Shown here: piece by piece, positions 17,395 to 36,323 of the stretch
Layout of the letters: every line of letters begins with the position of its first letter
Position numbering within the stretch: the first letter of the stretch is position 1
Assembly (NCBI GenBank): GCA_019057865.1
Contig: JAHLWP010000036.1
Span: 1-42,308 of the forward strand
DNA: 42,308 nucleotides
Direction of reading: 5' to 3'
Origin: Promethearchaeota archaeon
GTDB lineage: Archaea > Asgardarchaeota > Lokiarchaeia > Sigyniarchaeales > SOKP01
Made by a program: the position numbers and the translations under genes
The notes under the pieces: model-generated
Database searches by the model: none
The model's input: only the letters and a program-made list of their open reading frames with translations
Told to the model about the DNA's origin: nothing

Positions 17395-17670
17395 TTACCC
17401 ACTTTTACGTTCAATTTTAGCTCTCTGTGAAATCCTACCCTTATGAATCGCACAGCTCACACAAAGATATGATTTTTTTACTGGTGTTTGAATAATAGTG
17501 CCTTGTTTTTTTAATTCTGAATACATTCTATAATCTACAAGATTAATTTTTTTAGTAAAAGCTTTTGCTTTACTTCTTGGTATGTGTTTGCCACAATTCG
17601 AACATTGAACTAAACTATATTTTCCTTTGCTCGAACCAGACTTTCCTCCCGATTTTCGTTTCTTTGGTAT
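17395..17670 (-). CDS. rps26e: 30S ribosomal protein eS26 (ATA start; missed by ORF track)
   Basis: Manual translation (M)PKKRKSGGKSGSSKGKYSLVQCSNCGKHIPRSKAK...YLCVSCAIHKGRISQRAKIERKSG-TAA; GAGGT Shine-Dalgarno 7 nt before the ATA. Confidence 0.93.
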   Translation of the reverse strand: MPKKRKSGGKSGSSKGKYSLVQCSNCGKHIPRSKAKAFTKKINLVDYRMYSELKKQGTIIQTPVKKSYLCVSCAIHKGRISQRAKIERKSG

Positions 17671-17792
17671 AATTATAACCTCGTTTTAGATTGTTTGTAT
17701 TAAAACTTCTAAAATTTTAAGTATTAGAAATAGAGAAGGCTTAAATAATTTATGGATTCTTGTAGAAATGTTAAAATAGATATAAATTCTTT

Positions 17793-32897: not shown

Positions 32898-33011
32898 GTG
32901 ATCAAGATTACCAGTCAAAATGAATTTACCACAAAATATATTATCACCACAAAATTTGTCATTAAAGGTGTTGTAGAAAAAAGCGATATTGTTGGGGCTA
33001 TTTTTGGCCAG
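32898..33011 (+). CDS. dnaG: DnaG exon 1 (start GTG 32898 or ATT 32907)
   Basis: Translates VIKITSQNEFTTKYIITTKFVIKGVVEKSDIVGAIFGQ, the conserved archaeal DnaG N-terminus; in a different frame from the downstream ORF. Confidence 0.9.
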
Positions 33012-33051
33012 AGATAAAGAAACTTGAAGCCAATTCGGCTTAATCGGCTAA
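33012..33051 (+). other. 40-nt putative mRNA intron with bulge-helix-bulge-type boundary
   Basis: GGCC-AG^A-GAU ... AUC-GGCU-AA^A; removal gives GGC CAG ACT GAA GGT (GQTEG) in frame. Confidence 0.82.
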
Positions 33052-34122
33052 ACTGAAGGTCTTCTTTTGGATCTGGATTTAAGGGATTTACAAAAATCTG
33101 GACGAATTGGAAGAATCGAGGTTGATAATGAATCCAAGGAAGGAATTTCCGAAGGGATCATTAAAATACCTAGTAGTCTCACTCGTAAAGAAACAGCACT
33201 ATTAGCTGCGACTGTTGAAACAGTATCTAGGGTTGGACCTTGCGAAGCAGAAATGAAACTCTTAGAGATTCGTGATGTTCGCGAAACAAAACGAAAAAAA
33301 ATAATTAAACGTGCTACTGAACTTCTAAAAGAGTGGGATCAAAAATCTTTAGAACCAAGTGAAATAGAAGAACAAATTGACACAGATATTAAACTTGGAG
33401 AAATTCTTTCTTGGAGTAAAGAAAAATTACCTGCTGGACCCGAAGTAGATAGTAATCCTAATTTAATAATTGTGGAAGGTCGTGCAGATGTTTTAAACTT
33501 ATTAAGGATTGGTGTTAAAAATACAATTGCAGTTCAAGGAACTCAAGTACCTAAGTCAGTAATAAAATTAACAAAAAATAAGAGTTCGGTAACAGCTTTT
33601 ATGGATGGAGATAGGGGTGGAACGATCATCTTAAAGGAACTTTTACAAGTTGCTAAAATTGATTTCATTGCTAGAGCTCCTGATGGATATGAGGTTGAGG
33701 AATTAACTAGAAAGCAATTGATAAAAGCACTACAAAACAAGAAAAACGTTAATTCGTTTAAAGAAATAAAGGATATGGAAAAAGTTGAATCAAAATATAT
33801 AGGTAAAGAAGAAAGGCTTTATCGTGTCTTAAGAAATCTTAAGGTTAAAAATGAATCTGCAATCATTGAGGCTATTAAAGATATTGAACCTGGTCATAGT
33901 ATAGGTTTTAATAAAGCAATGGAGAAGCTATTTGATATACCGGTTGGAGAACTTTATGAAAAGATCAGAAATTATAAAGCTACCCAATATTTGATAATAG
34001 ATGGTATTTTAACCAAACGTCTTCTCTCCCTATCAATAAAAATGAAAATAAACTTTGTTGCTTGCAAAAATAAAGAAGAGGAAGTAGTAATTCCTGAAAA
34101 TATTACTGTGCACTATTTCTAA
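33052..34122 (+). CDS. dnaG: DnaG exon 2 (archaeal DnaG, TOPRIM domain, exosome-associated)
   Basis: TEGLLLDLDLRDLQKSGRIGRI, RVGPC, LPAGP, IIVEGRADV, FMDGDRGG, ARAPDGYEVEEL. Confidence 0.95.
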   Translation, partial: TEGLLLDLDLRDLQKSGRIGRIEVDNESKEGISEGIIKIPSSLTRKETALLAATVETVSRVGPCEAEMKLLEIRDVRETKRKKIIKRATELLKEWDQKSLEPSEIEEQIDTDIKLGEILSWSKEKLPAGPEVDSNPNLIIVEGRADVLNLLRIGVKNTIAVQGTQVPKSVIKLTKNKSSVTAFMDGDRGGTIILKELLQVAKIDFIARAPDGYEVEELTRKQLIKALQNKKNVNSFKEIKDMEKVESKYIGKEERLYRVLRNLKVKNESAIIEAIKDIEPGHSIGFNKAMEKLFDIPVGELYEKIRNYKATQYLIIDGILTKRLLSLSIKMKINFVACKNKEEEVVIPENITVHYF

Positions 34123-35897: not shown

Positions 35898-36323
35898 TTA
35901 TTTTTGAAGAATATCTCTTTGAATAACTTGAGAGATTTTATTTAGGTTTATATCTAAATTTTGTAATTGAGTTCCTAAGAATTCTACTTGTTTATTATGT
36001 TGTTCTATTATCTTATCAAGAAATTCAATCGCACTTGCTAAATCCTTTTCAATTACAACATCTTGGTTAACAGCAAGTAAGACTTTTTCTGGTTCTTTAA
36101 TAGATGCTTTAATATTTACTATACCTCCAATTGGAACTAAAATTTCGTCATCTTCTTTTACTCCTTCTTTTAAATTTTCTAAAGTATTTTTAGAATTCCT
36201 TACATTCGCACGTGATGCATTGATAATTTCTAATTGACTTTGATACATATCACGTTGCTCCTTTAAATAACGAAATTTTATTAATTGCTCTTGATATTCT
36301 TGAGGACTGACCACTTTTATCAA
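35898..36323 (-). CDS. pfdA: prefoldin alpha subunit
   Basis: Coiled coils flanking EILVPIGG...KVLLAVNQDVVIEK; conserved operon position. Confidence 0.9.
   Translation of the reverse strand: MIKVVSPQEYQEQLIKFRYLKEQRDMYQSQLEIINASRANVRNSKNTLENLKEGVKEDDEILVPIGGIVNIKASIKEPEKVLLAVNQDVVIEKDLASAIEFLDKIIEQHNKQVEFLGTQLQNLDINLNKISQVIQRDILQK

What the first reader, a model, noticed from the sequence alone, without database searches (positions are those of the whole stretch)
32898..34122. Candidate endonuclease-spliced (BHB-type) intron in the dnaG mRNA
Seen in sequence: the conserved archaeal DnaG motif GAIFGQTEGLL is split after Q by 40 nt (33012-33051, AGATAAAGAAACTTGAAGCCAATTCGGCTTAATCGGCTAA). The insert shifts the frame and has stops in both the upstream frame (AGA TAA) and the downstream frame (TGA, TAA). 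Its ends form bulge-helix-bulge geometry: a central 4-bp helix GGCC (33006-09)/GGCU (33046-49), 3-nt bulges AGA (33010-12) and AAA (33050-52), an inner helix GAU/AUC, and an internal hairpin AAGCC/GGCUU. The outer exon-exon helix is weak, so this is a relaxed HBh'/BHL-type motif. Established: the archaeal tRNA-splicing endonuclease EndA cuts after the second nucleotide of each bulge. Applying that rule removes exactly these 40 nt and yields GGC CAG ACU GAA GGU, a ~391-394-aa intact DnaG. The well-established archaeal mRNA intron is in crenarchaeal cbf5; I do not know of one described in dnaG or in Asgard archaea, but cannot search. Inference: synthesis of DnaG, an exosome RNA-binding subunit, depends on EndA/RtcB, which could couple RNA decay to tRNA-splicing capacity. 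Gene callers would annotate only an N-truncated DnaG from TTG 33067.
Basis: partly seen in the sequence, partly recalled or inferred. Interest (0 to 1): 0.95.

Follow-up and report, generated by a model that had tools for sequence, protein, structure and literature searches.

The report
tRNA-type mini-intron splitting Asgard dnaG
The only dnaG gene of this Loki-type (Asgard) archaeon is broken by a 40-base insert shaped like the introns archaea cut out of tRNAs. Comparison with 150 relatives shows it is almost certainly spliced out of the mRNA, which the papers I could search report only for the cbf5 gene.

Summary
A 40-nt insert (33012-33051) splits the single dnaG gene exactly between Q and T of GAIFGQ|TEGLL. 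The two pieces abut at positions 26|27 of NCBI's archaeal DnaG profile.

It is not an artefact or a dead gene:
- The same site carries a 29-43 nt insert in 51 of about 130 genomes of the family. Four more genomes carry a related insert 21 nt upstream.
- Exon 1 stays under purifying selection.
- Every close relative in public protein sets is called as the N-truncated 351-aa form.

The predicted 4-bp exon-intron helix pairs in 176 of 176 cells. The wobble base of the Gly codon covaries with its intron partner (C-G, U-G, A-U, G-U, G-C). A 3-bp intron helix follows the 5' bulge. No exon-exon helix exists, so the motif is the relaxed HBh' class.

The genome encodes a catalytic and a structural EndA subunit, with the loop linked to broad specificity, plus RtcB.

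Best reading: an EndA/RtcB-spliced mRNA intron, about 85% likely. No RNA data could be obtained.

The proposed coupling of RNA decay to tRNA splicing has no support, because the intron is patchy among close relatives. This scan had already noted the same dnaG intron in other genomes.

The parts
32898..33011 (+). dnaG exon 1: GTG start and 38 codons ending GAIFGQ
   Evidence: Translation. It matches NF003108 profile positions 1-26. The ORF is intact and pN/pS is about 0.05-0.15 among intron carriers. In relatives, stop codons lie just upstream of the GTG/TTG codon.
33006..33009 (+). Exon strand (GGCC) of the central 4-bp helix H
   Evidence: It pairs with 33046-33049. 176/176 cells pair in 44 distinct sequences. 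Position 33008 (third base of the Gly codon) covaries with the intron base.
33010..33012 (+). 5' three-nucleotide bulge (AGA); predicted cut after 33011
   Evidence: The bulge letters vary (AAA, AGA, AAU, AAG) while the flanking helices are kept. In G060 and G047 the first intron base is U, which fixes the 5' junction exactly here.
33012..33051 (+). 40-nt intron
   Evidence: It is unique in the genome. Homologous inserts of 29-43 nt sit at the same junction in 51 genomes.
33013..33015 (+). Intron helix h', 5' strand (GAU), pairing with 33043-33045 (AUC)
   Evidence: G-C in 44/44, A-U or G-U in 42/44, U-A in 37/44.
33027..33041 (+). Internal hairpin (5-bp stem, 5-nt loop)
   Evidence: The GCC/GGC core is kept in all sequences that align there. 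Other genera have a different hairpin in its place.
33043..33045 (+). Intron helix h', 3' strand (AUC)
33046..33049 (+). Intron strand (GGCU) of the central helix H
   Evidence: Variants GUCU, GUUC, GUUU and GCCU each match the Gly codon of their own exon.
33050..33052 (+). 3' three-nucleotide element (AAA); predicted cut after 33051. It is not closed by an exon-exon helix.
   Evidence: The first outer pair forms in 0/44 sequences. In G058 the last intron base is U.
33052..34122 (+). dnaG exon 2: 356 codons plus stop, from TEGLL through the Toprim region
   Evidence: Translation. It matches NF003108 positions 27-271 at E 9e-108. It is the only dnaG match in the genome.

Best explanation
The 40 nt at 33012-33051 are an archaeal tRNA-type (bulge-helix-bulge, relaxed HBh' class) intron inside the dnaG coding sequence.

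In the pre-mRNA, the last exon bases GGCC pair with GGCU near the intron's 3' end. A 3-bp intron helix (GAU/AUC) stacks on the other side of the 5' bulge.

The heteromeric splicing endonuclease EndA (catalytic alpha plus structural beta, both encoded in this genome) cuts after the second nucleotide of each 3-nt element, that is after 33011 and after 33051. RtcB then joins the exons. The spliced mRNA encodes a 394-aa DnaG with an intact GAIFGQTEGLL motif. Unspliced mRNA gives only a 39-residue peptide.

Shown here: the anatomy, its conservation and covariation, selection on both exons, and the presence of the enzymes.

Inferred: the cleavage and ligation themselves.

The intron looks like a tolerated, probably mobile or recombining element rather than a regulator.
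For: 1. The join is seamless. Exon 1 matches DnaG profile positions 1-26 and exon 2 matches 27-271. There is one dnaG copy in the genome.
2. The same junction carries a 29-43 nt insert in 51 genomes of 8 genera of the family, and in none of 17 genomes of three sister families. Lengths are 3n, 3n+1 and 3n+2, and stops are always present.
3. The central helix pairs in 176/176 cells of 44 distinct sequences. The Gly-codon third base and its intron partner appear as C-G 28, U-G 6, A-U 7, G-U 2 and G-C 1. Intronless relatives use all four Gly codons. RNAalifold on its own predicts exactly this helix. Overall 97.8% of cells pair, against 10-50% in slid registers, and 10 cells changed on both sides were matched by 0/500 shuffles.
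4. Exon 1 is under purifying selection among carriers (pN/pS about 0.05-0.15). G064 versus G058 shows 8 synonymous and 0 non-synonymous changes. The TEGLL codons change only synonymously, although a stop codon directly precedes them in 14 of 15 carriers of the genus and no start codon intervenes.
5. A second site 21 nt upstream, found in G052, G107, G145 and G101, obeys the same rule with a different helix: AGAU with GUUU, GUCU or AUCU, 15/16 cells paired.
6. The enzymes are present. One EndA paralog is closest to the A. pernix catalytic subunit 3P1Z_B and aligns without a gap through the crenarchaeal-specific loop. A second paralog lacks the catalytic His. RtcB is also present. PMC5829648 reports that Asgard EndA is the (alpha-beta)2 type with the L1 loop, which goes with cleavage of relaxed motifs.
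7. Another essential gene of this genome, aIF2-gamma, is split in its P-loop by a 29-nt insert with the same geometry.
8. It is not an assembly artefact. At least 25 database sequences from NCBI, ENA, JGI and Logan that are 95% or more identical all carry the truncated 351-aa call.
Against: - No RNA evidence exists here: no spliced read, no circular intron, no peptide.
- There is no exon-exon helix, so the 3' cut site is not in a closed bulge and the strict hBHBh' motif is not met.
- Single-sequence thermodynamics do not favour the motif in long context. A competing exon-1 hairpin leaves helix H at about 8% probability, and the constrained fold is 4.8-5.6 kcal/mol above the minimum.
- In G000 itself the 3' AAA could pair with the upstream UUU and absorb the bulge, though this is not conserved.
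- No intron-free contig or protein of a carrier species was found in JGI contigs or the protein set. Those sets are mostly DNA-derived, so this is weak.
Confidence: 0.85

Rival explanations
1. The insert is removed from the RNA, but by a nuclease and ligase other than EndA and RtcB. The conserved helix would then serve that other machinery.
For: Covariation shows a helix, not which enzyme reads it. The motif lacks the exon-exon helix of the strict substrate.
Against: The spacing is exactly the EndA rule at two independent sites and in aIF2-gamma: a 4-bp helix with cuts two nucleotides 3' of each strand. A broad-specificity type EndA and RtcB are present. I know of no other archaeal system that removes such inserts.
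Confidence: 0.05
2. Translational bypassing. Ribosomes take off at the end of exon 1 and land 40 nt downstream, as in phage T4 gene 60, and the RNA is never cut.
For: A stop codon follows the junction within one or two codons in all carriers, and a hairpin lies in the gap. Both are features of the gene 60 gap.
Against: No matching take-off and landing codons exist: CAA/CAG at take-off, but UAA or UAU before exon 2. Gap length varies from 29 to 43 nt and the interior sequence is replaced between genera. What is conserved and covaries is a helix joining the exon end to the intron's 3' end.
Confidence: 0.04
3. Split gene. Exon 1 is made as a free 39-residue peptide, and the rest of DnaG starts at an internal codon such as TTG 33067. 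The two then associate without being joined.
For: Gene callers do find a 351-aa ORF from TTG 33067. Exon 1 is clearly translated.
Against: The TTG is TTA in most carriers. The five TEGLL codons upstream of it change only synonymously, yet they lie behind an in-frame stop with no start codon. The split-gene reading also gives no reason for the exon-intron helix to covary.
Confidence: 0.04
4. Inactivating insertion. dnaG is a pseudogene, or an N-truncated remnant, in these species.
For: The reading frame is broken on the DNA.
Against: It is the only dnaG copy in a genome that is 99.7% complete. The insert persists in 51 genomes. Both exons are under purifying selection with no further lesions.
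Confidence: 0.02

Closest known systems
BHB intron in the cbf5 (pseudouridine synthase) pre-mRNA of Crenarchaeota (Watanabe 2002; Yoshinari 2006; Yokobori 2009, PMC2738675)
   Same: Both are short inserts without an ORF inside a protein-coding sequence, with a bulge-helix-bulge type motif at the exon-intron boundaries. Both hosts have a heteromeric EndA. Both show lineage-specific presence and loss among relatives (for cbf5; here).
   Different: The gene is different (dnaG) and the phylum is different (Asgard/Lokiarchaeia). The motif is the relaxed HBh' class. There are two alternative intron sites in one gene. The distribution is much patchier, with at least 5 changes in one genus. Splicing of cbf5 was shown experimentally, according to that paper's abstract. 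Here it is only inferred.
Non-canonical (HBh'/hBH) introns of archaeal pre-tRNAs cut by (alpha-beta)2 or epsilon2 EndA (PMC5829648; Asgard tRNA intron census, bioRxiv 10.64898/2026.10.13.758758)
   Same: The geometry is the same: a 4-bp central helix, 3-nt elements holding the cut sites, and one flanking helix. The size range is similar. The lineage is the same one reported to be rich in tRNA introns and to have the L1-loop EndA.
   Different: The host RNA is an mRNA, so no tRNA body is available to help recognition. The exon strand of the helix is constrained by codons, which makes the covariation run through the wobble base of a Gly codon.
HAC1/XBP1 mRNA splicing in eukaryotes (Ire1 cleavage, tRNA-ligase or RtcB joining)
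   Same: Both are non-spliceosomal, protein-enzyme splicing of an mRNA, with ligation by the tRNA-splicing ligase (RtcB in metazoa). Both change the reading frame of the product. This comparison rests on my own knowledge and on reference titles.
   Different: The endonuclease is different (Ire1, not EndA/Sen). The eukaryotic splicing is a regulated stress response, whereas no sign of regulation was seen here.
Translational bypass of the 50-nt gap in phage T4 gene 60
   Same: Both have a short non-coding gap inside an ORF that starts with a stop codon and contains a hairpin.
   Different: No matched take-off and landing codons are present. Here the conserved feature is an exon-to-intron-3'-end helix with EndA spacing.

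Membership tests
Archaeal EndA-type (BHB) intron | A 4-bp central helix between the four exon bases that end 2 nt before the 5' cut and the four intron bases that end 2 nt before the 3' cut | tested here: met
   GGCC 33006-09 pairs with GGCU 33046-49. 176/176 cells pair in 44 distinct sequences, with five pair types at the third position.
Archaeal EndA-type (BHB) intron | Cuts after the second nucleotide of each 3-nt element give the functional joined RNA | tested here: met
   The rule removes 33012-33051 and joins DnaG profile positions 26|27 with no residue lost or gained. Junction ambiguity is resolved by G060 and G047 (first intron base U) and by G058 (last intron base U).
Archaeal EndA-type (BHB) intron | Strict hBHBh' form: both bulges closed, including an exon-exon helix next to the 3' bulge | tested here: not met
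   The first outer pair forms in 0/44 sequences and the second in 13/44. The motif is therefore the relaxed class.
Archaeal EndA-type (BHB) intron | Relaxed HBh' class: central helix plus at least 2 contiguous pairs of intron helix next to the 5' bulge | tested here: met
   G-C in 44/44, A-U or G-U in 42/44, U-A in 37/44. The class definition follows.
Archaeal EndA-type (BHB) intron | The host encodes an EndA able to cut relaxed motifs ((alpha-beta)2 with the L1/crenarchaeal loop) and an RtcB ligase | tested here: met
   Two EndA paralogs are present. The alpha aligns without a gap to 3P1Z_B through the loop. In the beta, the catalytic His is replaced. RtcB scores 561 bits. The link between the loop and broad specificity comes from PMC5829648; I did not test it.
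Archaeal EndA-type (BHB) intron | The RNA is actually cleaved and ligated (spliced transcript, circular intron) | not testable with these tools
No intron-free contig or protein of a carrier species was found in the JGI contigs or the protein collection.
cbf5-type archaeal pre-mRNA intron | The insert lies inside a protein-coding sequence, breaks the ORF, and both exons stay under selection | tested here: met
Translational bypass element (T4 gene 60 type) | Identical take-off and landing codons flank the gap | tested here: not met
   Take-off would be CAA/CAG, but the codon before exon 2 is UAA or UAU.
Self-splicing group I / group II intron or other curated RNA family | Match to an Rfam model, and a size that fits a ribozyme | tested here: not met
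   There is no Rfam match apart from one chance hit at E 0.89. The insert is only 40 nt.

The most novel reading that the evidence does not exclude
The dnaG inserts may belong to a population of mobile, re-targetable mini-introns in Lokiarchaeia. The core hairpin of the upstream-site intron in G052 and G107 is nearly identical to the core of GQ|TE-site introns in other genera. Its 3' four bases, however, have changed to pair with the new exon context. Introns would then move between sites and between species, by reverse splicing or by recombination together with flanking exon sequence. EndA/RtcB splicing of ordinary mRNAs would be a routine part of gene expression in the closest prokaryotic relatives of eukaryotes.
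Probability: 0.3. Interest if true: 0.85.

Novelty: new member of a known kind. Interest (0 to 1): 0.7.

Why it matters
In the papers I could search, protein-enzyme splicing of an archaeal coding sequence is documented only for cbf5 in Crenarchaeota. Here a second, unrelated housekeeping gene in an Asgard archaeon needs the tRNA-splicing machinery to be expressed. DnaG is a primase-like protein, known as an exosome-associated subunit in other archaea.

The evidence is unusually clean: 51 genomes, a helix that covaries through a codon wobble base, and two intron sites that obey one rule.

There are three consequences.
1. Gene callers systematically mis-annotate such genes. Every public call close to this one (78-100% identical) that comes from an intron-bearing gene is an N-truncated 351-aa protein lacking a conserved motif.
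2. mRNA splicing by EndA/RtcB appears to be part of normal gene expression in this lineage. I confirmed a second case, aIF2-gamma, in this genome.
3. The system gives a tractable way to ask how introns spread and are lost in the prokaryotic relatives of eukaryotes.

Tried and rejected
- **Spliced-junction scans of JGI metagenome contigs.** The specific pattern gave 0 hits. The degenerate pattern gave 16 hits, all from other archaea with uninterrupted dnaG and none from a carrier species.
- **Spliced-form proteins.** Among the 120 best database relatives and 38 cluster members, no 393-394 aa protein is 95% or more identical to a carrier. The best is 89.6%, from an intronless relative.
- **My own genome-wide scan** for the BHB motif plus a restored ORF. 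It gave 17,755 hits, against 17,486-17,773 in slid-register controls, so it has no discriminating power in this 29% G+C genome. I dropped it.
- **Repeat or MITE reading.** The insert and its hairpin are unique in the genome.
- **Rfam.** Nothing was found.
- **Minimum-free-energy folding alone.** It does not recover the motif in long context.
- **Exon-exon outer helix.** I searched for it and it is absent.
- **Monophyly of carriers within the genus.** It is rejected (p-AU 3.5e-6), so a single gain without loss or transfer is excluded on the dnaG tree. The caveat is that the group was defined after seeing the tree.

Full report
**What is in the window**

The plus strand holds a 38-codon open frame from GTG 32898 to 33011 that ends in ...VVEKSDIVGAIFGQ. 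Forty bases follow (33012-33051). They put AGA then TAA in that frame, and they place TAA directly in front of the next piece. A 356-codon frame then runs from 33052 (TEGLLLDLDLRDLQKSGRIGRI...) to the stop at 34122.

NCBIfam's archaeal DnaG model NF003108 matches the first piece at profile positions 1-26 and the second at 27-271. Deleting exactly these 40 bases therefore joins the protein with no residue lost or gained, giving 394 aa. That is the length of uninterrupted homologues. This is the only dnaG match in a genome scored 99.7% complete. Names attached to relatives place the organism among Promethearchaeota/Lokiarchaeota MAGs. The genome is 29% G+C.

**Not an artefact, not a dead gene**

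- I searched 154 genomes of the order and fetched the junction regions.
- An insert of 29-43 nt sits at the same GQ|TE junction in 51 genomes. They belong to eight genera of the window's family.
- None of the 17 genomes of three sister families has it.
- Insert lengths fall in all three phase classes. The one 39-nt in-frame insert I translated (G020) carries three in-frame stops.
- At least 25 database proteins that are 95% or more identical to carriers come from NCBI, ENA, JGI and Logan assemblies. All are the N-truncated 351-aa call.
- Exon 1 is intact in every carrier. Its pN/pS among carriers is about 0.05-0.15, like exon 2. The sister carriers G064 and G058 differ by 8 synonymous and 0 non-synonymous changes.
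- The first five codons of exon 2 (TEGLL) change only synonymously among carriers. Yet a stop codon directly precedes them in 14 of 15 carriers of the genus, and no start codon intervenes. The TTG at 33067 that gene callers use is TTA in most carriers.

Both pieces must therefore be translated as one chain.

**The RNA structure**

I took 44 distinct sequences anchored at the junctions. The four exon bases that end two bases before the 5' junction pair with the four intron bases that end two bases before the 3' junction. This holds in 176 of 176 cells.

The third pair links the wobble base of the Gly codon to an intron base. It occurs as C-G (28), U-G (6), A-U (7), G-U (2) and G-C (1). Within one genus, GGA with GUCU and GGG with GCCU both occur. 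Intronless relatives use all four Gly codons freely.

RNAalifold, given only the alignment, predicts this helix and nothing else. The pair-counting tool gives 97.8% of cells paired, against 10-50% in slid registers. Ten cells changed on both sides were matched by 0 of 500 shuffles. These sequences are related, so the shuffle count is not a probability.

Next to the 5' bulge a short intron helix is kept: G-C in 44/44, A-U or G-U in 42/44, U-A in 37/44. The bulge letters themselves vary.

There is no exon-exon helix. The first outer pair forms in 0/44 sequences. In the nomenclature of the recent Asgard tRNA-intron census this is the HBh' class.

Two carriers have U as the first intron base and one has U as the last. 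This removes the one-base ambiguity of the junction and puts the cuts exactly where the EndA rule puts them, after the second base of each triplet.

**A second site obeying the same rule**

Four genomes lack the GQ|TE insert: G052 in the window's genus, G107 and G145 in a second genus, and G101 in a third. They carry instead a 30-31 nt insert 21 nt upstream, between the codons for DI and VG.

There the exon bases AGAU pair with GUUU, GUCU or AUCU of the intron, 15/16 cells. The rest of the intron is one hairpin, and again no exon-exon helix exists. The hairpin core of the G052 and G107 insert is almost identical to the core of GQ|TE inserts in G079 and G144. This suggests that one intron lineage has been re-used at a new site, with its 3' four bases changed to match the new exon.

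**Enzymes**

The genome has two EndA paralogs.
- One, of 200 aa, is closest to the catalytic subunit of the Aeropyrum pernix heterotetramer (3P1Z_B). It aligns without a gap through the region of the crenarchaeal-specific loop.
- The other, of 207 aa, has Ser where the catalytic His stands. It weakly matches a beta-subunit model.

RtcB is present at 561 bits. PMC5829648 reports that Asgard archaea have the (alpha-beta)2 EndA with the L1 loop, and that only loop-bearing enzymes cut relaxed motifs. I take that link from the paper and did not test it.

As context, I confirmed that the aIF2-gamma gene of this genome is split inside GHVDHG|KTT by a 29-nt insert. It has a 4-bp helix (AUGG/CCAU) and the same spacing.

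**Evolution**

On a tree of exon 2, the 15 carriers of the genus fall into at least four groups. At least five changes of state are needed, and holding carriers together is rejected (p-AU 3.5e-6). I defined the group after seeing the tree. Two intronless species (G019, G048) are nested, with 99% support, inside a carrier clade.

Synonymous divergence of exon 1 is higher between carriers and non-carriers than within either class, at equal exon-2 divergence. This suggests that the intron travels with its flanking exon by recombination. I did not resolve this further. The pattern resembles the gain and loss described for the cbf5 intron (PMC2738675), but it is much patchier.

**Rivals**

- **Ribosomal bypass.** It lacks matched take-off and landing codons and does not explain the covarying helix.
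- **A split protein.** It is contradicted by selection on TEGLL codons that no ribosome could otherwise reach.
- **A pseudogene.** It is contradicted by selection on both exons and by the single copy.
- **Removal by another, unknown enzyme.** This cannot be excluded without experiments.

**What is missing**

There are no RNA data. Junction scans of JGI contigs and a search for spliced-form proteins found nothing relevant.

Single-sequence folding favours the helix only in short context: 96% in 64 nt, about 8% in 120-250 nt. The constrained fold is 4.8-5.6 kcal/mol above the minimum.

The genome does have RNase PH-type exosome genes. However, closely related species manage without the intron.

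**Prior knowledge**

Four full-text searches found no paper describing a BHB intron in dnaG or in any Asgard protein-coding gene. The new Asgard intron preprint deals with tRNA genes only.

This scan, however, has already recorded the same dnaG intron in other genomes, and several other mRNA mini-introns in this genome. Of those notes, I re-tested the dnaG distribution and the aIF2-gamma case.

**Verdict**

This is a real and well-supported new member of the cbf5-type class of archaeal mRNA introns. It awaits RNA-level proof.

Noticed in passing
L039 (G052), L082 (G107), L088 (G145), L103 (G101): about 21 nt upstream of the site homologous to window 33011: A second intron position in dnaG (between the DI and VG codons), 30-31 nt long, with its own 4-bp helix and the same cut rule. 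Its hairpin core is nearly identical to that of GQ|TE-site introns in G079 and G144, which suggests transposition with re-matching of the four pairing bases.
   Followed up: partly
L081 about 530-565 (G000 contig C63, near 36085-36120): The only aIF2-gamma gene of this genome is split inside its P-loop (GHVDHG|KTT) by a 29-nt insert with helix AUGG/CCAU and 3-nt spacing. It shares the 9-mer AGCCAAUUC with the dnaG intron, which may be chance or common descent.
   Followed up: partly
window 32950-33011 and homologous exon-1 ends in L001-L060: Carriers of the genus share distinctive synonymous codons at the end of exon 1 (for example AGC for Ser, GGC GCC for Gly-Ala). Carrier versus non-carrier synonymous divergence in the last 15 codons exceeds that within either class. 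The intron may move between species together with flanking exon DNA.
   Followed up: partly
window 32898 and homologous positions: dnaG seems to start at a GTG or TTG codon throughout the genus. In-frame stops lie one to three codons upstream in several species, and no ATG is available.
   Followed up: no
window 33003-33005 with 33050-33052: In G000 and its closest relatives the UUU before GGCC can pair with the AAA after GGCU. This would extend the helix to 7 bp and hide the 3' cut site. In 24 of 44 sequences a C at that position prevents the extension. It might affect splicing efficiency in this species.
   Followed up: no
G000 contigs C71:81560-82162 and C69:38262-38885: There are two EndA paralogs of about 200 aa. 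One is catalytic-like with a loop resembling the crenarchaeal-specific loop. In the other the catalytic His is replaced by Ser. This fits a heterotetrameric enzyme.
   Followed up: partly
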